A DNA stretch of 64,000 nt from Sphaerodactylus townsendi (lineage: Eukaryota), in contig NC_059425.1 in the NCBI RefSeq assembly GCF_021028975.2, forward strand, positions 57,412,001-57,476,000. The letters are read 5' to 3'. Every line of letters begins with the position of its first letter. The first letter of the stretch is position 1. Positions 7,623 through 59,175 of the stretch are shown here, in pieces. A program made the translations under genes and the position numbers. The notes beneath the pieces are model-generated. The model saw only the letters and a list, made by a program, of their open reading frames with translations. It ran no database searches and was not told the DNA's origin.

Positions 7623-8668
7623 CAGAGGCGTATCTAGGCAACTGGAGCCTGGGGACAAAACCTGAATTTGGCGCCCTCCCGCCCCATATGGGCAGCCACC
7701 CTCCCCCATCACAACCAAACAATGATTTGTTTCACCAGCTCATAAAACACCTCCCATCCCCAGCAAAACATACATGGCTCTCTCCCCATCAACTCTCTTT
7801 CCTAATTTTGTCCTCACACCAACCCTGTGAGGTAGGTTGTTAGCCTGAGAAACAGCTCCAAGCCAATGCAAGTGTGTATTAAGCATGTAAATCTCTCACA
7901 AATCACCCCCAACAAAACATTTACCAAACAAATGTCAGCATCATCTCACACAAAACACCTCCAGTAGAATCCACCCCCAAACAGCATCACTTTCAATGGT
8001 GTTTAAACTAGGGAGCCCAAATTCTTTTAAATCCACCTTAAAGGGAGAATCTGGGGTCCCCAGTTAAAACAACATTGAAAGTGTTGCTGTTTTGGGGTGG
8101 ATTCCCCCCACCCTGAAACACCATCACTTTCAATGTTTAAACTGGGGACCTCACATTCTCCCTTTACATCCATGCCGAAGGGGGTGGATTTAAAAGGAGA
8201 ATCTGGGGAAATTTGGGGGGTGCCTGCTGTCAGGGGTGCAATTGTTAAGCTAGCAGCACCAAAATTTCAGAGTATATTTAGGAGACTCTCCTGATGATAC
8301 CACCCAGGTTTGGTGAAGTTTGGTTCAGTGGGTCCAAAGTTATGGACCCTCAAAGGTGTAGCTCCCATTTCCTATTAGTTCCCATTGGAAACAATGGGGG
8401 ATGGGGGCACCCCTTTGGGAGTCCATAACTTTGGACCCCCTGAACCAAACCTCACCTAACCTGGGTGGTATCATCAGGAGAGTCTCCTGAAAAATCCCTG
8501 AAATTTTGGTGCTGCTAGTCTAAAAACCGCGCCCCCTGCAGGCCGAACACTGAAAAAACACTAAAAAATAGGAAAAACACATAAACGAACCTGAAATTTT
8601 TGCGCCTTCCACTAGGGGGGCGCCCGGGGACATAGGGTACCCCATGTCTCTAGGCAAATACTCCACTG
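7623..8668. mobile_element. Non-autonomous hAT-type transposon (CAG[T/A]GGCGTA termini)
   Basis: Ends cagaggcgtatct ... aaatactccactg. Near-perfect 8-bp TSD GTAAGAGC/ATAAGAGC (7615-7622, 8669-8676). Contains internal palindromic modules. Confidence 0.85.
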
Positions 8669-27699: not shown

Positions 27700-28317
27700 T
27701 AATGTATTGTCGAAGGCTTTCATGGCTGGAATTACTAGGGTGTTGTGTGGTTTCCAGGCTGTATGGCCGTGTTCTAGTAGCATTTTTCTCCTGACATTTC
27801 GCCTGCATCTGTGGCTGGTATCTTCAGAGGATCTGATGAAGTGGTGGGATTCAGCAGGTTCGCACCGGCAGAACCAGTAGTTAAAATGGTGCTTGTAAAC
27901 AACCAGTTGTTAAATTATTTGAATCCTACCACCGGAACTGGTTGTTAAATTATTTGAATCCCACCACTGATCTGATGGTAGCAAAGCAAGTGGAATATAT
28001 ATACCTGTGGAATGTCCAGGGTGGGAGAAAGAACAATGCAGATGCCCTCACTAATTGATTATGCTGTCTTCATGGTTACTCACATGCTAAATGGGTGGAT
28101 CCCACCCAACAAATGCAAATCAAGCTTGCTAATTGCACCCTTTACACCTGTTAACAGGGAAATGGTTCTTTCTCCCACCCTGGACATTCCACAAGTATAT
28201 ATACTCCACTTGCTTTACTACCATCAGATCCTCTGAAGATGCTAGCCACTGATGCAGGCGAAGAGTCAGGAGAAAATGCTACTAGAACACGGCCATACAG
28301 CCTGGAAACCGCACCCC
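27700..28317. mobile_element. Palindromic Penelope-like element with nested hAT MITE (27839-27969)
   Basis: Inverted arms ~27742-28034 and ~28165-28313, flanked by the 10-bp duplication AAAGAGCTAT (27690-27699, 28318-28327). The nested MITE has gtggtgggattca / tgaatcccaccactg TIRs and TSD ATCTGATG. Confidence 0.8.
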
Positions 28318-35503: not shown

Positions 35504-37050
35504 CTATTATTTTCAACCCCCAAAAGAAGAAAAAAATATTGTATCTCAAGACAAACTTCACATAGTTGCTACACATCATACTAAATATAGTTGGAAGCAA
35601 ATAAATAAATAAAGACCACTGTGATCTGCTGAATATTGTATAGAATTCCCCTCAAATCTTCTGATTTCACACTTGATCTATTCCATCCCGTTTAAGAATC
35701 AGTAACTACTATTATTACTATCTTGTTGGAACTCAACTTCAGTCTGAACCCATAGCCAGTTCATCCGAGCCACTATGCAGTGGCTTAGGAAAACAAAATG
35801 ACACTGGCTGAGAGCTGAAATAAATCTACAGGGTCATATTGCCTCTCCTTGTCTCCAGATGCCCATTATCCACAACAGTCTTAGTTCCATGACCAAGCTG
35901 GAAGCCTAACTGCAGCAAATTCAGAACACCTGCTTTATCCAGAAATGCCATTTCTTGTGAAGCAACCATACAGCCAAATAAATTTTCACCCAAACAGGAA
36001 ACACTGATTTTAAAAAAGCATAAAAGGCTGTTACTGCTTTAAGGATGGCTTTTTTCAAGGGGTGTGTGTGTGATAACCACTTTCTTCAATAAGGATATTC
36101 CTTTCCTAGTTGATGACTGATAGTGTGAAAACCCCAAGGTCTTCTGTAGTTGGTGATCTTTCACCAAGCAAGACCCAAGGCCAGTAAGTACATGGTAGGA
36201 GAACATACCACAGAGCAAAAGATAAATGTGCTTGCCTGCAGAAGCCCTTTGTAAATTGCAGCTGATTCATGTCAAAACACAACACATTAAGCAGAGTGCG
36301 GTCCTGTAAATACAGCATGTCATGACAGATTCATTCCATTTGCTTGAACATGCTTTTGCAGAAGTGATTATTTCCAGGGCAACAGAAAGCAATACTGTCA
36401 TAACTGACAGCACAACTAGACATCATGGTGTCCCTGGATTCGACTTGGGCAAGCTGCTGCCATTTTAGAGCTGAATGGGGGCTGTTTAAAAATGTTGCAA
36501 GGGTCCAGTCCTGATGAGACCTATAACATGAAGGGATCAGTTGTTCTCACTCCATGCCTTTTCAAGTTCCAAAACAGCTGCATGTGTATCTCAATTCCTG
36601 AAACGATATGGGAGGCGGGGGTGGAGATGTGGGGGGGGGGGGGGGAGACCACCTGATTGCACTGTGCTGCCCTAATGGTATTTTTATGTGAACTTCATTC
36701 ATCTCTAAAATGGTCATGCCCTGTGCTACATATGCTTGATCCTAAGCATATGTATTAATCCTTGGTTAATCGATGTGCATAGTGTTGACTGTCTGTGGAA
36801 TGCCATTTTTTCAACAGCCCATAACCTTGACAGTGGTGCTATTTCCATAGCATCTACAATGATATGAGAATTTTTTATTATAAAAGCGTCATTTCCATAC
36901 AACACTAAATCTGGGCTAGTTATACACTTAAAAAAAAACCCCGTAGCTTTAATTCTATATGAGAAAATCAGAAAGAGTATTATTTCAACTTAAACTCAAC
37001 AGGAGCAGTGACAGGGGTAGTGAAAGGGGCAGACTTGCAAAGGTGTTTGG

Positions 37051-37269
37051 AATACCGGTTGTTGTGGGTTTTCCGGGCTGTGTGGCCGTGGTCTAGTAGA
37101 TCTTGTTCCCAACGTTTCGCCTCCATCTGTGGCTGGCATCTTCAGAGGTGTATCACAGAGGGAAGTCTGTTACACACTGTGTTTTCTCTCTTTTCTCCCA
37201 CGGCCAGACACCCCCCAAAAAACCCACAACAACCAGTTGAATCTGGCTGTGAAAGACTTCGACAATACA
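37051..37269. mobile_element. Penelope-like element, short inverted form
   Basis: ggttgttgtgggttttccgggctg... and inverted ...aaaacccacaacaacc...gtgaaagacttcgacaata. Flanking duplication GTGTTTGG (37043-37050, 37270-37277). Confidence 0.75.
37108..37148 (-). ncRNA. Minimal type-I hammerhead ribozyme motif (Penelope-associated), intact catalytic core
   Basis: Minus strand reads CCU-CUGAAGA-U-GCCAGCCACAGAUGGAGGC-GAAAC-GUU^GGG: CUGANGA and GAAA cores, stem II GCC/GGC, palindromic ACGU stem III, NUH triplet. Confidence 0.7.
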
Positions 37270-37574
37270 GTGTTTGGGATATTTTTCAGTTTATCCACTT
37301 TGAGGATGAGAACATGATCATTGGAGGTTTGAGACTTACCACCTTCTTGTATGACTCTTCCCTTACCAGGCTACTTAAATCCACTGGGGAGAATCCTGGT
37401 TGACTGGGTCTGAGGGGCAGTTAATTCTGCCTTGAAACAAACTGGGACCTACCTGGGACCCAGGTGATCTCAATAACTGTTCACCAGTCTCAAATGTACA
37501 ATTCCCAAGCAAGGTGATTGAACAGACAGAGGCTGAACAATCTCTGGCTTTCCTGGATGAAGCAAAGTGTTTAG

Positions 37575-37745
37575 GTCCTTTCCAATCTGATTTCAGGTCT
37601 GGCTAGGGGACTCAAACAACCTTGGCTGCTCTGGCAGATGATCTGCACCAGGAGATGATCAGATGGGATGAGATTTTATTGATTCTCCTGAACCTTTCAC
37701 CAGTTTTTTATTCCATGCATCATGATATCTTTCTGGGCCACTTTT
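37575..37745 (+). mobile_element. Decayed L2 RT fragment
   Basis: Reads PFQSDFRSG*GTQTTLAALADDL, like the L2 motif PFQSGFRPGxGTETAL. Confidence 0.55.
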
Positions 37746-38919
37746 CTGCAGAATATTTCTGATATTTACTGGGTGTGAAGTATCAGAATTGGGAAATACC
37801 GGGAGTGCCTTTATGGAATCAGATGTTGCTGATCTGACCCCAGAACTATTGGCCATTTCATCATGTCAATCATTTTAGACTGCATGATCCTTTCTTGGGT
37901 GCTTTCAATACTAACGACCACAGTTCAATGCAAATGGTGGTTTAACAGTAACATTGAAAGACATGTGAACATTCCTGAGAGGTCCTAAGATCTCCTAGTA
38001 TTGTGCATCATTTTGCCAACAGCATTTAAGTCCAGTGTCTAAGGCTGCAACTAGACATGATGCAAGAGAACTATGACTGAACTGTCCCAACATCTTTCAT
38101 TTCATTTAAAAGCAGTCTGGACTAAAAGAGTAGATTTGGACTGGGACTATGGCAGAGGAATTTAATTGCTCCCTCTCCCCCTCTTTTCAATGAAAAGCAG
38201 ACCTCTCTACCTAATAGCCCCAGAATATTGAAGGGAGGGGGAATTTATACAGCCACTTAGCAAAGAACAATTCCTATTTGAAAAAAAAGTATTGAATGGG
38301 GGGGAACCTTACATCCCAAAACAATAACCCTGCTGTTTACAAATGAAATTAGACATTGGGAAAATGGATTACAGATCTCTCAAATATTGTCCACCTTTGG
38401 ATATCTGACTCACTATACAGAAATATTGGGAAGGGAGTAATGGAAGAAAGGATACTCAGCTCCCACCCCCTCCCAATACTTGGCAAGATGAGAAATTTCA
38501 GCATAAGCTCATTAAAAAGAATGGGAAGGAAGGAATTTGTGAGAGCTGCCAAAGTTTGATTCCATTTGGTAAAAATGGCCTACCAAAAAATGAAGTCTGT
38601 TGACTTCATTATTCAAATACCTTCCAGTATTCATGGAGATTAGTGTAGATGAAGAACCCCTCTTGAGTGAGTGCAAAGATTTTGCTCAAGGGGGGACATG
38701 AAGTTTTCTGTTTCAAAAGCATGATTTTGATGCGCCAGCATTTAGTCCCAACATTTCACTACTGGATTCAGTCACTGGGGATCTTTTGTACAGAGGGCTG
38801 TTTTTGCAGTTATGTTTTGTTTTGTTTGTATTTCATACAGCTACGTTTTTAATACTACAGAAACTATTACTAGCAGAAAGCAAAACCAGTGTGCATTGTG
38901 TTGAAAGTTCTATCCTTAC

Positions 38920-40610: not shown

Positions 40611-42995
40611 GATTCGGTAGTGGGATTCAAATAATTTAACAACTGCAGGGAGAAGTTCCCTTCTTGGGGCCCATTTTCACCCATCAAAGCAAAAGGGGGG
40701 GGGGAAAGTCTGTCATTTTGTACAAGATTAAAATGACCAGTAATAGAACCCCCATTTCACACATTTCTCTTTTCTTGTGTTGAAAGACACAGATTATGCC
40801 CCCCCCCCAAAGAACCCCCTCAAATTCCACTTGGATGGTGAATTAAAATTGGTGCCTTTAATGGGACTGTCAACTTCTAGGGGGAACTGAACCCCCCCCC
40901 CTGGAAAATGTCTGCCATGGAGGGTGGACTCGCCAGCCATATTCCTCACTGAGCATGGCCCCTGCCCTGGTCCCAAAAGCCACAGCTTCTGAGAATCTAC
41001 CCCCAAATATCCTGGGATTTGCCTGCCGGGAGTTGGCAACCCGCGACAACCATGGATGAGGATGATCCCGGCCTTCCTCCCTTCCACAATCTACAAGTTT
41101 ACCCTCCACTGGCTTACTCTGAAGTAAACCTTCCAAGATCCACGTGCAAGGCTTTCCCCATGCACTCCTGCCCTCCTTGGCAATGCAGAAGCAAACAATT
41201 CCCACCCACCCTGCCTCCTCATCAAACAACCCCAACTAGTGCAACCTTGCAGGGCTGCAGGTAATAACTCCTTTAAAACCTGACATCGTCTTTCTCACCT
41301 GGACTCAGCCAGGTTGCCATCCACCAGGAAAGCCCTTGGAGCTCAGCAGGGCTGCTGGGGGGTCTGCAACCAAAGGTGGCAATGCTGGGGTCCCCCATGT
41401 GGTCCAGCCCCCCAAGAAGGTCCTGGGGGAGGGGGAAATGAGGCCACCCAAATCAGGGTCAACCCCTGACCCCCAATCAAGGGAGGGGCGGACTGAAGTT
41501 AGGATTGCGCTGAAAATCAGCTGAGTCACTCGGAAAGTCCAGATGTTAGTGAAGACCTTCCAAGAGGATAGCTCTCCAGGCAGCTGAGACAGGGAAGCCA
41601 GAAGCAGCTTGGGATAGCTGTCTCGGGCTGTGCCTCTCTAGGAAAAGAATTCTTTCCCATTAACCCTTAGGGCCACTCTCCGAAGGAGGCTGAGAGGACC
41701 CAAGCCACGCGGAGCCGCAGTACAAGGACAAAAGAGCCACATGCGGCTCCGGAGCTGCGGGTTGCAGACCCCTGGGCTAGATTCCCCATCAGCCTGTGCT
41801 ATCACATGACAATACCTGCCTCGATGCAGAGCCTCCTGTTAAATGACACGCAAGATTCATACCAGTGTTTATAAGCTAACTTTTTTTTTTGCTTAAAGTA
41901 GTGCTTTCAAAAGGTCCATAGATCCCACAGAGCTTTGTCTGCTCCTGTTTGCAATGCCACTACACCCTTTGGAGTGGGCAATGTGAGCTGTTCAAACATG
42001 TGTTCTATTTAATATAGAGTTTATTCAGCCATTTCATATCTGCAGTTCATATTAATGTTTTTTTGCTTTCAGCTAAGAAAGTCCAGACTTCTAGTCACCT
42101 ATTCAGTTCAATGGCATAGAACCTAATGCAGGAAATGGGAAAATAAAGATAACTCTGAGCATAATCCAGTCAAACTCCACTGACCTTGCTCTGAGATACA
42201 TGTTCTTAAACATCTCCCACTTACACAAATGGCTCTTCAAAATGTCTAGTTATGTTTGGACTGCACCCTTTATTTTGCAAAGATGGCTTTAAAAGTTACT
42301 TGTCATTCTTTTGACACATGGGCTTGGCTCCAGTGATGCGCAAGAGGAAACATAAGTGGATTTAGCGCAGTTCTGCTTTCACACAATCTTGTGGCACACT
42401 AAGCACTTTCTTCCCTATATATTGCAGCACCCAGAAATTGGTTTTACAAGAGGAAACATAAATGGAGATACAATATATTTGACTTAGAACTAGCATCTAC
42501 CACAGTCTTTTCTTTGCATTTCAGTTTGCACAAGAGCTGCAGCACAAGAAGAAATTACATATTGGATCTAACCCAAAACCTATGTTTTCAAAAGTACAAA
42601 TTTCCCATCATGATAGCAACTATCTCTAAATAGCTACCCCATCAGAATCATTACTTAGGAATTTCTTGTATCTTGAAGATAAGACAAAAATTCAGAAAAT
42701 CTGCAAAGAACAGAACACAGAATAGGGCATGCAGAACACAGTCAAGTACCTTCAACAGAATCTTGGGAATGCTCAAAGTACGTTTCTAAAGTAAGTTTCT
42801 AATTACAATGGAAGTTCTATTAAAAGTACATTCGTGATCTGACTTTCTATCACCGAATGCTCGCACAGTCAAAGAGATGCATATATTTCTATTTCAAAAA
42901 TCAACTTTAACAGAGTACTGCTTTTAAGTGGCACTGCTGCCACTTTTTCAAATCTATCATATGGTTGCTAAATTCAGAAATAAAAATATACTTAC

Positions 42996-44455
42996 CCTCA
43001 TCTCTCTTTCTATGATACTATCTTCAACAGAAAACATTTCAGATACAGGCCTCTCCTTCACCGGCTCTTTCTTGACTCTCTCTTTTACAATGGTTAAGTC
43101 TGGTTCTGAGATCGATGGGCCTAGTGAAGAGCCATTCACCGCTGTTGGGTCAGTCCGACATACACTGACAGCCTTTGTAGGCCCTGGTCTCATGGCCTTG
43201 ACTCGAGAAACAGACAATGTAACGTTCATTGGGTCATTCCTTAAGGCTCCATTGCTAACGCTTTTCCTGGCTCCGGGATACTCTGGGGGAGGTTTGTTTG
43301 GTATTCTAGCCAAGGCAGCTTGCAGCTGAGCACTGTACTCCATGTTTTCATGGAATGCTGCCATAGAGGAAACAGATTCCGAGGCTTCCTCCTCCTCTTC
43401 ACTTTCACTGCTGTGTATCAGCATTGTGGCATCTGAGAAGGTCTTCTTGTGATGGTAGTGAGGGAGCTGCACTATTTCCTCTGGCTGCACCTGCTCTCGC
43501 AAAGTATTTCTGCGTGGTAAAGGAGCGTTTAGACTCTTTAAAGTCATGACCTCTATGCCACGCACCATGTTGCTGATGACTTCCAAACTCTGCCGCTTGT
43601 TGACAGGTGCATGGTGCTTGACTGCCCTAAGGGGTTCGCTGACTTCCTGGAGAGACTGGTGGATGACTGGAGAGCTATCCTCTTGGAAGGTCTTCACCAA
43701 CATCTGGACTTTCCGAGTGACCAGGTCAGGGCTGCTTCCACTAACATACTTGTGGCGATGGCTTGCTAGATCAGGTGTGCTGGTAGCAGGGCGTGGACGT
43801 GGATATGGGGGTGGTGGTCTAAAACGGTAGTTTTTTAGTACATGGGCTGTACCTCCTCTCTGGCTATTTGGCATTTGCATGTTGGCCAGCTCTGGTGTGC
43901 TAACCGTGTGGGAAATAGCACTGGCTGCTGCTTTAGTCTGTGTAGGATTTATGGGCTTCATTTGTTCAGATGGAGTGATGTGTTTTTTATAAGTGCCTTG
44001 GGGCCCATAGGTTATAGTATAAGGAGAGCGCTCCCGAATTTCTGGTTGGCTATACACAAGGTCTTTGGGGTGATTATAAGCATGGGTGTTCCCGATATTG
44101 AGGTTCCGCAGCGACTGGCTTTGGCTGTCTGTATGAATAATCCCTCTATTCATTTGCCTCATTACAGTTTCATAGTCTGGCGTTGGCCGATAGGAAGGTA
44201 CTATGATTGCACTATGTCTATGGCTAGGGATGTAGTCTGCTCTCATGATGTCACTCCCAGGGATGCTGAGGTTGGAGGACATTGGAGAAGCCTGAATGAA
44301 ATTTTGTGAGCGGTTGAGGGAGTTCATACTTGGGGCGCTGCACACACTGCCGTTGGGGACGTTGCCATTCAAGTAGCTGTAGTCCATTGCACATCTATCC
44401 AAGCTAGTCTGAGATCGACAGTAAAACATTTCTTCATTTCCATGGAAAATGCTGT
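42996..44455 (-). CDS. PTPN14: PTPN14 large linker exon (approx. 13) with two PPxY motifs
   Basis: DSIFHGNEE...RPPPPYPRPRPATSTPDL...KPPPEYPG...EDSIIEREMR. PPPPY at 43803-43817, PPPEY at 43278-43292. ttcag/gtaagt; 1460 nt. Confidence 0.97.
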
Positions 44456-46290: not shown

Positions 46291-46658
46291 TGGGGTGCTG
46301 TGTGGTTTCCAGGCTGTATGGCCATGTTCTCTGTATAGCAGCATTCTCTCCTGACGTTTTGCCTGCATCTGTGGCTGGCATCTTCAGAGGATCTGATAGT
46401 TGGAAAGGAAAGTAAGTGGACTATATATAGCTGTGACCTTTACTGTCACAGTATATATAGCTGTGACCTTTACTTTATATACAGCTGTGACCACAGCTAT
46501 ATATACTCCACTTGCTTTCCTTTCCAACTATCAGATCCTCTGAAGATGCCAGCCACAGATGCAGGAGAAACGTCAGGAGAGAATGCTGCTAGAACATGGC
46601 CATACAGCCCGGAAACCACACAGAACCGCAGTGATTCCAGCCGTGAAAGCCTTCGACA
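46291..46658. mobile_element. Palindromic Penelope-like element with a hammerhead motif on each strand
   Basis: Inverted arms ~46293-46437 and ~46489-46628. 13-bp duplication ACAGTCATTACAA (46278-46290, 46656-46668). Hammerhead motifs at 46349-46391 (-) and 46536-46578 (+). Confidence 0.82.
46536..46578 (+). ncRNA. Minimal hammerhead ribozyme motif with a mutated stem II closing pair
   Basis: UCCU-CUGAAGA-UGCCAGCCACAGAUGCAGGA-GAAAC-GUC^AGGA. Confidence 0.55.
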
Positions 46659-51850: not shown

Positions 51851-51956
51851 CTACAGAAAAGGAGGAAAATCCAAATGTAATCTTACAACGAAAAATACTA
51901 CTAAGTGAAGAGAAGATTGCAACATTTGGCAACAGCAACTATCACTTTTTTAGATA

Positions 51957-52681
51957 CCGTATATACTCGCATATAAGTCGAATTTTTCAGCTCATTTTTT
52001 GTGCTGAAAAAGCCCCCATCGACTTATATGCGAGTGAGGTGTATTTTAAAAAATATTTTAGGGTTTTTACTTTGTTGGCCGCCAGGGGGTGCAGTTTTTA
52101 GGCTAGCAGCACCAAAATTTCAGGGTATCATCAGGTGACACTCCTGATGATATCAGCCAGGTTTGGTGAAGTTTGGTTTGAGGGGGTCCAAAGTTATGGA
52201 CCCCCAAAGGGAGTGCCCCCATCTCGCATTGTTTTTAGTGGGAGCTAATAGCAGATGGGGCTACCCTTTTGAGGGTCCATAACTTTGGACCCCCTGAACC
52301 AAACTTCACCAAACCTGAGTGGTATCATCAGGAGGGTCTCCTAAAGATACTCTGAAATGTTGGTACTTCTAACACAAACATTCCTCCCCTGACAGGCACC
52401 CTCAATTTTTTCCCAGATTCTCCCTTTAAATCACCCCCCCCCCTTGTGAGTGGATTTAAAGGGAGAATCAGGGCTTACAGAGCTAGTTTACTGTTTCTCT
52501 TTGAAATAAATATTCAAAAACATTTAACCTACTGATCTATTTTTATTTTTGAAATTTACCAGTATTTGCTGCATTTCCCACCCTCGACTTATACGCGAGT
52601 CAATAAGTTTTCCCAGTTTTTTGTGGTAAAATTAGGTGCCTCGGCTTATATGCAGGTCAATTTATACACAAGTATATACGA
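51957..52681. mobile_element. Non-autonomous Tc1/mariner-superfamily (Tc2/pogo-like) transposon
   Basis: TIRs ccgtatatact... / ...agtatatacg(a) with TA on both sides. Closely related to 57593-58552. Confidence 0.85.
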
Positions 52682-54830
52682 TATTAGTGTGGTGTTATGG
52701 TTAGCACACTACTGTAACAGAGACCCAGACTAAACCCCATTCTGCCATGAAACTCACTTGGGTGACCTTGGGACAGTTAGTCTCGCTCTGCCTGACCTAC
52801 ATTATTGGGTGGTTCTGGGAATTAAACTACAAGAGAGAAAACCAAATTTGATGCCCTGGAAGAAGGGTGGGACAGGAACAAAGACAGATGGTGTTACAGT
52901 AATGTATCAGGACAACCTGAGCCAACATTCCATCAGAAGCTCCACAACACTGATAATACAACCCAGATTGCTGACCATATACAGTGTGTTCACGGTATAT
53001 GGTCAGCAATCACTTTTTCTAACTCCATAGAACATTCATTAGTATAATATACCAGAGATATTATATCAGTGCATGGGCTATCACCATGGTTTTAAAAGAA
53101 AACAGCTCTTAAACAATCTCAGCCTATCCTAACACATTCAGTTAAATTCTCACTCTTTACCCTTAACATAATCCCTCCAGTTTGTTTTGCACAGCATTGA
53201 ATTCATTTGGTGAATACCAAACATTACCCACAGTGAAACAAAACTAGAAGATTGTTTATCAAACTAATGAACTGCAGCACAGAACTTTAAATCTTCTGCG
53301 AGCCTTTGATTTCTGTCAGTTGTGTAAAGGCTGGACACAGAAGACCACAATATCTCTGCCTTCCAGTGTACAAGTCATTAACTTTGATGGAGGCTGTCAC
53401 AAGTTCCAGAGTGCAGAGCTAGCTAAATTCTTTCTTTCCTTCTGTCCCTTTGGGCTAATTTGAGAGCTGCCCTGATTCTTTACATCAGCCAAAGCAGACA
53501 CAGGACACTTCTTGAGCTGCAATGTGCCTCAGGGCAGAAACTGAATTGCCAATGGCAGAAAAGGCTACTGAGAAGCTAGATAAGTGCAGCAGCAATGTGT
53601 GTGTGTGGGGGTGGGGTTGAGCATTTATTAAAAAAGAAATCAAAATTCTATATATTTCTACAAACTAGCTGCACAAGTCAATACACACTGTTCAGCCCTC
53701 CCTAGATAAAAAGTACATGAAACATTACAGTAATTAAATGCTTATAATAATTAAAACTGAAGAGACCAAAAGAGAAAAAGGTAGACAAATGAATGATACG
53801 CTTATTTCTTTTGAGGTGTTCACAGTGTTTTAAAATTACTGGTCAAAAGCCACTAATTTCAAACCCACTAAAAGCTCTCAGTGGAAACTTTCCAAAGGAC
53901 ACAAATGCAAGGATTCTGAGGTGCAGCAGAATCAATCCCTTTCCTTTGTAAAGTTGCAAATGGTATTAAGCTCATATTTGAAATGTCAGACTGCAGCTCA
54001 GTGGCAGATCACATGCTATGCATAAAAAAGAGTCTCGTGTTTAAGCCCTATCATCATGGGGTTTAGTCTGTGCTAACTGATGGTTCCTTCTTGCTAAAAT
54101 GGCCCTGTCCTTTGTAAACATTACAACATTGAAAACTGGTTGGGTGGTCTCCAATGACTGGAAAACATACACCATAGAGTGAAAATCTATTTGACATAAA
54201 CATTTACTACACTAAATTTGTGGAGTGCATAACCTTCAAATATTAATACAATGTTTTTATCTCACTAATCTTCCATTGTGGAACTTAAAACAGTTTACAT
54301 GCAACATTCATTAATATTCCCATTAGGTACTGATGAAATGTATGCTTACTTAGATGCTTATATAATAACGATAATAATCATAACGATTATTATTTCAGGT
54401 TTAACAGATAGCAATAGACATTTTCCCTTTAAAATTATTAAAACTGGCCATAGTTTGGATCTCAAAACCTTGCTGGCTAATTTGTGACATTTTAGTGGTC
54501 CTAATAAAAGGAAAACAATTTCTGTGGGTTTGGGATTGCCTTTTTCACCCCAGAAGGAACTGACAGGAATGTTTTTACATTTAATATTTACACTGTCTAT
54601 ACCAGCTGCTTGCATTACAAGATGATATATCAGGAAGGTCAAATCCACCTTCCCTTCCATCCCACACCATATTTTCCTTTTATATGGATTCAAGCACCTG
54701 ATTGTGTATGTGTTTTAAACACATAGAACTGGTGAAATACCTCTGCAGTCTGGTCTAGATGTCTCATATTTCCCTGATGACAATAAACTTTTGAAACGTA
54801 AATGAAATTACAGTCCCCATACTACTTTAC

Positions 54831-55208: not shown

Positions 55209-57592
55209 CTATAGACATACAAACAACAGTATTGTTTCTAAGTAAGACAAAGAACAGAGGAAGTAAAAATACTTTAATTTTTATAGCTAATGTGGTTTTA
55301 TGTTTGGGTGCAGAAATAAGATTGGCAAACCAAGATGTTTGAGAATTTGACTACATTCCATCTTGTTTTATAACGTTTCATAATGGTGATTTCTGCATTT
55401 CATTCCCCTAATATGGGCCAATATGTCTATTGGACAAGAAGAACTAAAGATGGCTGGATGTGATTTCATAATCATGCCACTCTCATGCATCAGAATTAGA
55501 TTAGCAACAGAAATATGAGGGTCACGAACAAACTGAAAACTTGAGGAAGGAGATACAAGCATATTCAAACAGAGGCAGTGGGTAGCTGTTACAATTTAGC
55601 CTATACTTCCAGAAGACTGAGAGGAGATTTGTTAGAATGCACGGCACCAATTTGGACTGCCTCTGTATATAGAAAGTTAGCTCATGAAGATCAAGGTTGT
55701 AGCTTAGCTCTCAGTTTTCCATTTAAAAGTTTTATTTTTCCTAAGAAGTGGATTAATGATGTGGTTCTCCAGTTGCGGTTCTGAAGTGGTTCAATCCATT
55801 CTGTCACCTCATTCTGCTGCTGGTATAGATCCAGTTGTAGTTCAGAAAAAAATCAATTAGGACCATACAACTGATTTGTACATTCATATACCCATAATCA
55901 GTAAGAAAGAGAGGGTGTCCCCTACATTTAAAATTCTGTAAAGGATATTATGGTATGGTAAATTTCTATATCTAAAGAGTTTTTTAAGGCAATTTCCCCC
56001 CCAAAATACTAACTGCATTCAAGATAGTAGAGTTTATCCTGGACAGTAACAAAATTTTACTACATTGCCCTGTCAGCTTATAAGAGGTTATTGACACTCC
56101 TTCACTAACCTGTCTGTATTACCCAGGCTACATTGAACTGAACAGAACTACAAGTTATACAGAAGAACCTAGGCGCATGTTTTGCAAGGACGGGTACCAG
56201 TTCCTGCTACAAAATATTAAACCAATGCCCCAGGGGACAAGCAAATTGTTCTTCAGCTCAAAATATAACAATTACTGAAATGAAGGGCATTCTAAGAATA
56301 TCATGTTGAATCCTACCATGGAAGCAATTTAGAGTTCATACAGATATAAGAGAGAATGGACCAAGAATGTCAGAAGAATGAAAAGGGGGGGGGGGGCTGA
56401 ATTCTTCTCAGCTACATGCATGTCTGTTGATAGCATCTTAGAATTACGTGATCAAAAGTTTTGCTGTCCATGTTATTTAAAACATGCAATACAATGCACT
56501 CATAATTTCAGCAATTAAAACAAATATGTATATTATGCAACAGTAGGTCATATGTAGCTCTGAGTTTTTCTTTTAAAATAATTTCATACAAATTGTATTT
56601 TTGCTTAATTTCAAAAATGAAAAAGAGAACCTAGCATACTCCCCCCCAAGTGATTACTTCAGAATGCCAGAAGGCTATGTGCATTTGTACCTGACTAAAC
56701 TGTCTTTTTCTTACTGATTAGGGGCCTCCCTGTAATATTTGCTCCTGACAATGAAAAATGTGAATGCCATAACTTGCTAATGAAAAATGGCATTGTACAT
56801 GTCTGCACACAGCTACACACCTGTGAGGTGTTCTTCTGCGTACATAACTTTGTTCTTTTGACTGCTGAAGAAATGCCGTTTGACATATATTGTAACTGCA
56901 CAAGATCAAACAAAGTCCAAGCACAGCAAGCCCCTCACCAGTTCAGAAACTTCTTGGAATAATATTCTTGCCTGCCCTAGGCAAAGCCTCTGGTCCATTC
57001 AGGATTCAGTTAATAAGGCTTATTATTAATGTGGACAATCAACTTATTAACAGTAAACTAGAACTATCCCATTTGGACAGTAAAATGACTTGAAAATACT
57101 GAACACTAAACCACTTTAGTGACTGGGAAACTCCAGTTCATTTAGTCACTAATTTTAGCATTTTAGCTTCACAACCTTCTCATGAAGAAGGTTAAGTTGA
57201 GATAGTTCTGGTCCAAGGATATCCAAGGCTGAACAGAGATTTGATTCTGGGCCCTCCCCTATACTCAAGCCCAACATTCTGTTCACAGAGTTCACTGGAT
57301 GGTCTTGGGTAGGCTACTCTAAAAGAAGGCTGCAATACAAATGTACTCAAAAGAAAAATTGCACCTCTGCTTCTGAAGCATCCTGGGACACATTTTATGT
57401 CTCCTACTGATAATTCTAAGAGCAGTGGGAATCAAATTGTTAAGGGTTCATCATGATCTTAAGCAAAAAAATAAAATGGATAATTCTGCCATATTTACAG
57501 TATACCTCGCTCCATACTATTTGTTCTAATTTATTTAGAAAATTTGCATCCAACCTTTTATAAATAATGCTCATTAGCAGACATAAGATATA

Positions 57593-58552
57593 CCGTATAT
57601 ACTCACATGTAAGTCGAATTTTTCAGCACATTTTTTGTGCTGAAAAAGCCCCCCTCGACTTATACGTGAGTCAGGTGAATTTTTAAAAATATTTTAGGGT
57701 TTTTATTTTGTCGGCCGCCAGGGGGCGCAGTTTTTAGGCTAGTGGCATCAAAATTTCAGGGATTTTTCAAGAGACTCTCCTGATGATACCATCCAAGTTT
57801 GGTGAAGTTTGGTTCAGGGGGTCCAAAGTTATGGACCCTCAAAAGGGGTGCCCCCATCCCCCATTGTTTTCAATGGGAGCTAATAGTAGATGGGGCTACA
57901 TTTTGAGCCAAACTTCACTAAAACTAGGTGGTATCATCAGGATAATATCTTGCCGACACCAGCCAGGTTTGGTGATGTTTGGTTTGAAGGGGTCCAAAGT
58001 TATGGAACCCCAAAGGGGGTGCCCCATCCCCCATTGTTTCCAATGGGAGCTAATAGGAGATGGTGCTACATTTTGAGAGTCCATAACTTTGGGCCCCCTG
58101 AACCAAACTTCACCAAACCTGGGTGGTATCACCAGGAAGGTCTCCTAAAGATACTCTGAAATGTTGGTACTGCTAACATAAACATTCCTCCCCGGGCCAA
58201 AAATCAAGTTTTGAAAGATTTTAACTTTTGTGTTTCAGCTTGGTTGCTAGCTGAGCTAAGGTTTTTGTACTTTTAAAGTTATTGTTGAGACCATATTGTT
58301 CTTGATGACCCTCTTTTCCACTTACAGAGCTAGTTTACTGTTTTTCTTTGAAATAAATATTCAAAAACATTTAACCTACTGATGCCTCAATGTAATTTTA
58401 TTGGTATCTATTTTTATTTTTGAAATTTACCAGTAGCTGCTGCATTTCCCACCCTCGACTTATACGCGAGTCAATAAGTTTTCCCAGTTTTTTGCGGTAA
58501 AATTAGGTGCCTCGGCTTATATGCGGGTCGACTTATACACAAGTATATACGG
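57593..58552. mobile_element. Non-autonomous Tc1/mariner-superfamily (Tc2/pogo-like) transposon, longer copy
   Basis: TIRs ccgtatatact / agtatatacgg, TA TSD (57591-57592, 58553-58554). The internal palindromic module is duplicated. Confidence 0.88.
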
Positions 58553-59175
58553 TACTAACAAATGCTTGGCAGAAGCACATACGAGATCATCCATAGGGAT
58601 GATTCTAGCAGAAGCTGAGACACACAGCTTACTGAGTGGACCCGATTTTACTTCCCAAAAAATCTGTAGCCAAGAATGCACCTTGTTCCTTTCTAGTACA
58701 GAAATTGTAAAAGTCAACCCATATATGAACTTATCCAATTCTGGGTTCAGTTTCTCAATATCGCCTGACTTATGAACTCATGAGATCCCTACACACTGAG
58801 GCACACTATTGGTCCATCTACCTCAGTGTAACATACTCTCTTAGTAATTTTGAAACAATACCTTTCTAACTGAGGTTGGGGAAACCTGGACCTTCTGTTT
58901 GCAAACTAGGTACTCTACCACTGAATTATGGTCCTGTTACTAGGATATGAGGGAACCTTGAGAGCTGACTTTTTATATGTACACATATACAGACTGAGCA
59001 TATGAAAAAAATTATACCTGAGATTATAGTGTTTAGTAACATGAATAAAGTGCTAATTTAGGGGAGAACAACACTAATATTTTATGGTCTGGTTTGTTCC
59101 CACTCCCTAAAACCATAGCCGAGCAACAAGGAGTTGCATAATACTTTTAAAGAAAAGTCACAGGTTTTAGCTTAC

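What the first reader, a model, noticed from the sequence alone, without database searches (positions are those of the whole stretch)
37108..37148. Intact minimal hammerhead ribozyme, sense-oriented in PTPN14 intron 14
Seen: the minus strand (the PTPN14 pre-mRNA strand) reads CCU CUGAAGA U GCC..GGC GAAAC GUU^GGG. It has both catalytic cores, stem II, a 3-bp stem I and a self-complementary ACGU in place of stem III; predicted cleavage is between 37111 and 37110. Established: Penelope-like retroelements carry such minimal type-I hammerheads, which are thought to cleave as dimers through the palindromic stem III. Inference: this intron could be cut co-transcriptionally if it pairs with another copy. 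Two more same-strand copies lie in the same pre-mRNA (27788-27831, 46349-46391), though both are damaged.
Basis: partly seen in the sequence, partly recalled or inferred. Interest (0 to 1): 0.7.

Follow-up and report, generated by a model that had tools for sequence, protein, structure and literature searches.

The report
Penelope transposon stub carrying hammerhead motif
The self-cutting RNA motif in this gecko PTPN14 intron is real, but it is one of about 15,700 equally intact copies left across the genome by a known lizard jumping gene, and it likely does not cut the gene's RNA to any meaningful extent.

Summary
The motif is there as described: sense to PTPN14, in a 3,416-nt intron, with every core base intact. 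It lies in a 215-bp inverted stub of a Poseidon-type Penelope-like element (PLE), flanked by a 12-bp target-site duplication. The motif overlaps that element's start codon, as in the anole element PAc. The genome holds 15,700 exact matches to the intact pattern (0 for the reversed control), one per 115 kb, so one in this window is expected. Copies lose core CpG bases as fast as flanking CpGs (20% against 19%), and sense and antisense copies are balanced in a neighbouring large gene (small sample). Cutting here is unlikely. The motif has no stem III and needs a partner whose core makes the cut. Both same-strand neighbours are damaged, 9 kb away and in other introns. The next exon follows in about 25 s. 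PAc's ribozyme cut only with its protein; this stub holds 83 of the 172 ORF bases that PAc's insertion assay needed. No cleavage assay could be run. The scan reported this family before at other loci of this genome. Ordinary; low interest.

The parts
37108..37148 (-). Minimal type-I hammerhead motif of the GUU family; predicted cut between 37111 and 37110; two private changes against the family majority (loop II C>G at 37123, A1.1>G at 37110)
37111..37116 (-). Palindrome AACGUU; its inner ACGU would form the intermolecular stem III, and the outer A14/U17 pair would likely be inhibitory
   Evidence: sequence; duplex energies; effect inferred
37057..37139 (-). First 83 nt of the element's ORF (MPATDGGETLGTRSTRPRPHSPENPQQ); the AUG overlaps A9-U-G10.1 of the ribozyme
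   Evidence: 14 of 27 residues identical to the N-terminus of anole RT protein P0122, E 7e-7
37055..37182 (-). Sense arm of the insertion: 3' end of the pseudo-LTR with the hammerhead
   Evidence: the same pLTR follows a GIY-YIG-type ORF end in L019, L068, L078, L204
37197..37269 (+). Inverted arm holding the element's 'tail'; predicted to pair with 37057-37096 and put the hammerhead in the loop of a long hairpin
   Evidence: (z -4.0)
37043..37054 (.). Target-site duplication, left copy (12 bp, 11 of 12 identical)
37270..37281 (.). Target-site duplication, right copy
35504..38919 (-). Host intron of PTPN14 (3,416 nt, GT..AG), between coding exons 13 and 14
27790..27830 (-). Damaged GUC-family copy (G10.1>A, C15.2>U) in the last intron
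28230..28270 (+). Damaged antisense GUC-family copy (A15.1>G, C15.2>A); other arm of the 27.7-28.3 kb inverted insertion
46350..46390 (-). Damaged GUC-family copy (G12>A) in the intron between coding exons 9 and 10
46537..46577 (+). Damaged antisense GUC-family copy (C11.1>A); other arm of the 46.3-46.7 kb inverted insertion (15-bp repeat at its flanks)

Best explanation
This is a 215-bp, 5'-truncated, inverted stub of a Poseidon-clade Penelope-like retrotransposon whose hammerhead motif is intact, likely only because this copy has so far escaped neutral CpG decay, and it is likely a passive passenger that does not measurably cut PTPN14 pre-mRNA. Shown: repeat family, target-site duplication, link to an RT/endonuclease ORF, copy number, decay rates. 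Inferred: the motif works, if at all, on the element's own tandem transcript, as a strand-swapped dimer helped by the element's protein. In the intron it lacks an intact nearby partner, a stable stem I, the full protein-binding region and the time to act before the next exon is made.
For: 15,700 intact-pattern matches, 4,239 of them GUU, 0 in controls; 0.55 expected per 64 kb. The pLTR follows GIY-YIG-type ORF ends and RT motifs in both families; a query piece from this family is 68% identical to anole RT protein P0122. Core/stem CpG bases are changed in 73 of 361 cells against 68 of 365 downstream (P=0.64), G12 is lost in 18 of 90 copies, and 22 of 92 GUU copies are intact. In 400 kb of a minus-strand fn3/LamN gene there are 7 sense copies (1 intact) and 7 antisense (2 intact). 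Stem I pairing probability is at most 0.002 in the full insertion. Active-shaped dimers with the two cis neighbours cost +7.1 and +8.0 kcal/mol. The cut site is 1,607 nt from the 3' splice site, about 25 s at 3.5-4.1 kb/min (rate, and 'slow ribozymes had no effect', from passages of PMC10919898). Minimal hammerheads had no activity as monomers and low activity as dimers (PMC4209133). PAc's ribozyme showed no cleavage without protein and no RNA-seq ends at the site, and its minimal template needed 172 nt of ORF (PMC11167929). The intron's spliced joint is present in 3 of 4 runs laid.
Against: All core bases are intact, and the ribozyme lies in the loop, not the stem, of the long hairpin. This copy's A1.1>G weakens an inhibitory CUGA/UYAG pairing: folding cost in the bare 41-mer is 2.1 kcal/mol against 2.4 (GUU) and 4.5 (GUC). 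Family RNA is abundant in the raw-read runs (about 130-220 reads deep per direction over the element), so trans partners may exist. An uninterrupted 837-aa ORF of the sister family exists in the genome. In the anchor-selected subset, non-CpG core bases varied less than loop bases (12 of 630 against 35 of 819, P=0.011); this was not significant in the wider sample (P=0.10). The strand test is small. The folding energies leave out Mg2+, tertiary contacts and protein, and are similarly unfavourable for the family majority. No data set could see cleavage ends.
Confidence: 0.88

Rival explanations
1. The stub is cut at a low level in trans, when RNA from one of the thousands of intact copies, or the Poseidon protein in tissues that express it, supplies the partner core. 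The cut would mostly fall on the excised intron and have little effect on the mRNA.
For: Intact core and palindrome; abundant family RNA; an intact sister-family ORF; PAc's ribozyme is protein-assisted.
Against: The stub has 83-85 of the 172 ORF bases that PAc's template needed, and about +44 to +83 is predicted to be locked in the hairpin. Dimers are predicted unfavourable by 4.3-6.5 kcal/mol even with intact partners. No places where many molecules begin or end (a weak test).
Confidence: 0.09
2. One reading: the copy dimerises in cis with another copy on the same pre-mRNA and cuts intron 14 co-transcriptionally, tuning PTPN14 output.
For: Three same-strand copies lie in the PTPN14 coding span; fast intronic ribozymes can abort splicing (PMC10919898 passages).
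Against: The partner's core cuts this site. 46349 lacks G12, and 27788 lacks the G10.1-C11.1 pair and is made 9.3 kb later. Both lie in other introns. Heterodimers cost +7.1 and +8.0 kcal/mol. The window to the next exon is about 25 s. There is no sign of selection on copies.
Confidence: 0.02
3. The motif is not a working ribozyme even in the GUU family's source elements: it persists as pLTR and start-codon sequence inherited from a GUC ancestor, and U17 has weakened or disabled it.
For: The motif overlaps the ORF start. U17 extends the palindrome to AACGUU, allowing an A14-U17 pair. PAc's ribozyme was dispensable for insertion in vitro. GUC and AUC are reported as the most effective triplets (PMC9217987 passage).
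Against: The non-coding core C3-G8, upstream of the AUG, is identical in both families while the sequence just upstream differs. GUU satisfies the NUH rule, and a GUU-cutting ribozyme was the most active in that same paper. This rival concerns the family and does not exclude the best explanation.
Confidence: 0.25

Closest known systems
PAc / Poseidon of Anolis carolinensis (Frangieh et al. 2024, PMC11167929)
   Same: Hammerhead in the pLTR with the ORF starting at stem II. The cut lies 26 nt after the AUG codon in both. The N-terminus is homologous to anole protein P0122, which I take for PAc by size and family, not by name. Copies end at two sites that define a 30-40 nt 'tail'. Genomic ORFs match P0122 at 85% (GUC family, L194) and 77% (GUU family, L204).
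   Different: Gecko host; GUU instead of GUC at the cut (P0122 has Ser at that codon, this family Leu); this locus is a 215-bp non-coding stub.
Minimal hammerheads (min-HHR) of metazoan PLEs (Cervera and de la Pena 2014, PMC4209133)
   Same: No helix III, palindromic 15.2-16.2, extra base between 9 and 10.1, G10.1-C11.1 pair, thousands of dispersed single copies per genome, reported in reptiles.
   Different: Helix I is 3 bp here (4-5 bp in the schistosome consensus). Helix II is 3 bp plus an interrupted extension. Copies here are very uniform rather than highly variable.
[quoted passage not shown]
   Same: Self-cleaving motif in the sense strand of an intron.
   Different: CPEB3 is a conserved ribozyme with a measured 2-3 min half-life and 9.9 kb to the next exon. 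This is a high-copy repeat, needs a partner, and lies 1.6 kb from the next exon.
Animal non-LTR retrozymes (bioRxiv 10.64898/2026.07.22.740005, passages)
   Same: Non-coding, PLE pLTR-derived, hammerhead-bearing sequences; 42-44% of the Xenopus copies overlap introns.
   Different: Retrozymes are head-to-tail tandem units; this is an inverted stub with a single hammerhead.

Membership tests
Hammerhead ribozyme | Core C3 U4 G5 A6 N7 G8 A9 G12 A13 A14 A15 U16 H17 | tested here: met
   against the list in PMC3088659
Hammerhead ribozyme | Three helices closing the core in one molecule (canonical monomer) | tested here: not met
   A15.1-U16.1 would close a 2-nt loop; no Rfam hammerhead hit up to E=5; stem I probability at most 0.002 in context
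Hammerhead ribozyme | Site-specific self-cleavage | not testable with these tools
   needs a bench assay; available reads cannot show such ends
PLE minimal hammerhead (min-HHR) | Extra nucleotide between 9 and 10.1 | tested here: met
   U at 37138; criterion
PLE minimal hammerhead (min-HHR) | G10.1-C11.1 pair | tested here: met
   G37137 and C37119; stem II probability 0.90 in the full insertion
PLE minimal hammerhead (min-HHR) | Palindromic 15.2-16.2, no helix III | tested here: met
   ACGU at 37115-37112
PLE minimal hammerhead (min-HHR) | Located in the pLTR of a PLE family | tested here: met
PLE minimal hammerhead (min-HHR) | Covariation supporting stems I and II | tested here: inconclusive
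   stems are the same in both families, so they say nothing either way
Penelope/Poseidon PLE | Family ORF with RT and C-terminal GIY-YIG endonuclease | tested here: met
   RT motifs and a GVY-x-IPCSC-GKVYIG...REAIEIHK endonuclease end upstream of this pLTR in L078, L083, L068; P0122 carries RVT_1. The endonuclease was recognised by recalled motif and homology: Pfam GIY-YIG did not hit the sister-family piece and a PDB search found nothing
Penelope/Poseidon PLE | Hammerhead overlapping the ORF start; optional 30-40 nt tail at copy ends | tested here: met
   sense arm ends at about +83, inverted arm carries the tail
Penelope/Poseidon PLE | This copy autonomous (pLTR-ORF-pLTR) | tested here: not met
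   215-bp stub between target-site duplications
Non-LTR retrozyme | Head-to-tail tandem units | tested here: not met
   inverted arms with one hammerhead
Domesticated intronic ribozyme | Conserved at the orthologous site in other species | not testable with these tools
   no related genomes are held for this window

The most novel reading that the evidence does not exclude
Thousands of intact, sense-oriented Poseidon hammerhead stubs in gecko introns act as latent cut sites. They fire in trans only where the Poseidon protein or partner RNA is present, so a transposon protein nicks host pre-mRNAs, PTPN14 among them, across the transcriptome. The GUU family's six-base palindrome AACGUU is a variant tuned for such dimer docking.
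Probability: 0.04. Interest if true: 0.65.

Novelty: new member of a known kind. Interest (0 to 1): 0.1.

Why it matters
As found, it matters little: it is one more copy of a known kind of transposon-borne ribozyme motif. The family could still serve an open question, namely whether metazoan PLE hammerheads cut RNA in vivo. With 15,700 intact copies, a genome-wide count of sense against antisense intronic copies, or cyclic-phosphate sequencing, would test that with real power. PTPN14 is not a privileged test site; same-strand tandem intact copies such as G000:C1:4702501-4702850 are better.

Tried and rejected
Rfam scan to E=5: no hammerhead family. The loose core pattern alone is at chance. 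Pfam GIY-YIG search of the genome found 3 matches, none carrying this pLTR; L033 is a different PLE. Run search: no RNA holder listed, which is no evidence on expression. Raw-read runs X5-X7 carry another organism label and differ from the window at three exon positions in all reads shown; reads on the element come from other copies (about 99% carry the family base at 37123). They do not test this copy, and the absence of piled ends is a weak blank. Contig runs X1-X4 cannot show ends or levels; similar contig depth on both sides of the motif was not used as evidence. A possible distal extension of stem I appears in some folds, but by eye its register differs between the families, so it was not claimed. 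In the strand test, the second region (zf-C4 gene, 200 kb) gave 2 minus and 4 plus full copies, none intact; its gene limits were not fixed, so it was left out of the sense/antisense count. Papers not held: Lunse et al. 2016, Fong et al. [quoted passage not shown] Searches 'hammerhead + PTPN14' (0 papers) and 'Penelope + hammerhead + gecko' (1 irrelevant paper) found nothing on this locus. The PAc supplementary figure gave no text and its GenBank file could not be read, so PAc's nucleotide sequence was not compared.

Full report
Observation. The minus strand at 37148-37108 reads CCU CUGAAGA U GCC [13 nt] GGC GAAAC GUU^GGG. All 13 core positions listed in PMC3088659 (passage) are present, and the predicted cut is between 37111 and 37110. 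Helix III is absent as a monomer. Rfam returned no hammerhead among 17 matches up to E=5. The loose core pattern is at chance in this window (8 against 7.2), so the case rests on the full motif and its family.

Host gene. The exon at 35282-35503 matches PTPN14 structures best. The large exon is 100% identical to a record named PTPN14 of Sphaerodactylus townsendi, a gecko. A leopard-gecko PTPN14 maps 18 coding exons on the minus strand, and the motif lies between the 13th and 14th. The intron is 35504-38919, and its spliced joint appears in 3 of 4 runs laid. 'Intron 14' fits if there is one non-coding first exon (recalled from human). The other same-strand copies are in the last intron and between coding exons 9 and 10.

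What it is. The motif belongs to a dispersed repeat. The pattern of an intact motif has 15,700 exact matches in 1.81 Gb and 0 when reversed; 4,239 have GUU. That is one per 115 kb, or 0.55 per window. Two families occur in the window: GUU (this copy) and GUC (four copies, in two inverted pairs). Longer genomic copies tie both pLTRs to the end of an endonuclease ORF, and the GUU pLTR also to RT motifs. A GUU-family endonuclease piece is 68% identical to an 836-aa anole RT protein, P0122. P0122 finds an uninterrupted 837-aa GUC-family ORF at 85% and a broken GUU-family copy at 77%. The AUG overlaps A9-U-G10.1, and the first 27 codons are 52% identical to the N-terminus of P0122. This is the layout described for PAc (PMC11167929; parts 1, 2 and 4 of 4 read).

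Anatomy of this insertion. A 12-bp target-site duplication (37043-54 and 37270-81, one mismatch) encloses 215 bp. The sense arm (37182-37055) holds the pLTR end, the hammerhead and 83-85 nt of ORF. A short spacer follows, then an inverted arm (37197-37269) with the 'tail'. In the pre-mRNA the arms are predicted to form a long hairpin with the hammerhead in its loop (-88 kcal/mol, z -4.0). I looked for the duplication after earlier scan notes mentioned such repeats.

Is intactness selected? I fetched 60 ten-kb loci centred on the first GUU-anchor matches of contig C1, plus 464 kb around the window, so the sample is partly conditioned on flanking anchors. Of 190 profile hits, 138 covered ribozyme and tail: 92 GUU, 33 GUC and 13 unassigned, which were left out. 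In the GUU family, CpG bases of core and stem were changed in 73 of 361 cells against 68 of 365 for downstream CpGs (P=0.64). G12 was lost in 18 of 90 copies. Non-CpG core bases were changed in 26 of 911 against 119 of 3,021 downstream (P=0.13; three high-variation subfamily columns dropped). 22 of 92 GUU and 13 of 33 GUC copies remain intact. Against this, the 63 equal-length copies of the 66 anchor-selected ones showed less variation in the core than in the loop (12 of 630 against 35 of 819, P=0.011). I read that as variation among source elements (inference). This copy differs from the family majority at 2 of 40 positions, a typical number. In 400 kb of a neighbouring minus-strand gene with LamN and fn3 exons (USH2A by recalled synteny), full copies were 7 sense (1 intact) and 7 antisense (2 intact). 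That shows no depletion but has little power.

Mechanism. Minimal hammerheads form helix III only as dimers. Monomers were inactive and dimers weak (PMC4209133, parts 1-2 of 4 read; review passage). In the strand-swapped dimer, one molecule's CUGANGA, stem II and GAAA meet the other's UH and 3' strand of stem I (my model). So the site at 37110/37111 needs an intact partner, and this copy's own core would act on the partner. The upstream neighbour lacks G12. The downstream one lacks G10.1 and is transcribed 9.3 kb later. Predicted costs of the active-shaped dimer over free monomers are +4.3 (homodimer), +7.1 and +8.0 kcal/mol (neighbours); family-majority homodimers cost +4.7 and +8.7, so the calculation does not single this copy out and omits Mg2+ and protein. 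Stem I is essentially unformed in context (at most 0.002). The cut site is 1,607 nt from the 3' splice site, about 25 s of elongation, and slow intronic ribozymes did not affect splicing (PMC10919898 passages citing Fong 2009). PAc's ribozyme cut only with protein, was dispensable for insertion, and left no RNA-seq ends. Its minimal template for insertion needed the first 172 nt of ORF, where the authors hypothesise the protein binds; this stub has half of that, partly hairpin-locked.

Points against. The core is intact and outside the hairpin stem. The private A1.1>G lowers a competing pairing. Family RNA is abundant. An uninterrupted ORF exists in the genome, its expression unknown. None of my data can see cleavage: the raw reads carry another organism label and map from other copies.

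Comparison and verdict. It works like, and meets every tested sequence criterion of, a PLE minimal hammerhead. It fails the test for a canonical monomeric hammerhead and for a tandem retrozyme. No paper on this locus was found. The scan has described the same family at other loci of this genome, including a sense copy in another gene's intron. The one family-level detail I did not see in the papers read is the GUU cut site with a six-base palindrome. Verdict: a real motif in an ordinary transposon stub, likely inactive here. Interest 0.1.

Noticed in passing
window 41525-41582 (+): A 58-bp inverted copy (96.6% identical) of part of PTPN14's large exon (43664-43721) lies in the following intron; it could pair with the exon in the pre-mRNA.
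   Followed up: partly
window 27838-27968: A roughly 130-bp insert with an 8-bp flanking repeat (catcagat) splits the 27.7-28.3 kb Penelope insertion; looks like a hAT-type MITE (label recalled).
   Followed up: no
L194 (G000:C3:109298-111745): Uninterrupted 837-aa Poseidon ORF of the GUC family, 85% identical to anole P0122, with an inverted pLTR at its 5' end.
   Followed up: partly
G000:C1:4702501, 4702610, 4702810 (+): Three same-strand intact GUU hammerheads within 350 bp; a far better cis-dimer candidate than the PTPN14 copy. Same-strand neighbours under 1 kb were rare: 3 against 43 opposite-strand pairs.
   Followed up: no
L033:694-1638: A different Penelope-like family (Neptune-like by recall) with a 315-aa open frame and a Pfam GIY-YIG hit.
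   Followed up: partly
G000:C1 about 57,251-57,276 kb and 57,396-57,407 kb: Two long tracts (about 25 and 10 kb) of over 90% C with periodic A; probably assembly artefacts.
   Followed up: no
window 8155-8569, 51954-52686, 57590-58557: Another fold-back repeat family with several copies, giving sub-threshold miRNA hits in Rfam.
   Followed up: no
L187, L193, L153, L144: A third, more diverged hammerhead-bearing family with AGCAAAAAC-like sequence after the cut site, mostly GUU.
   Followed up: no
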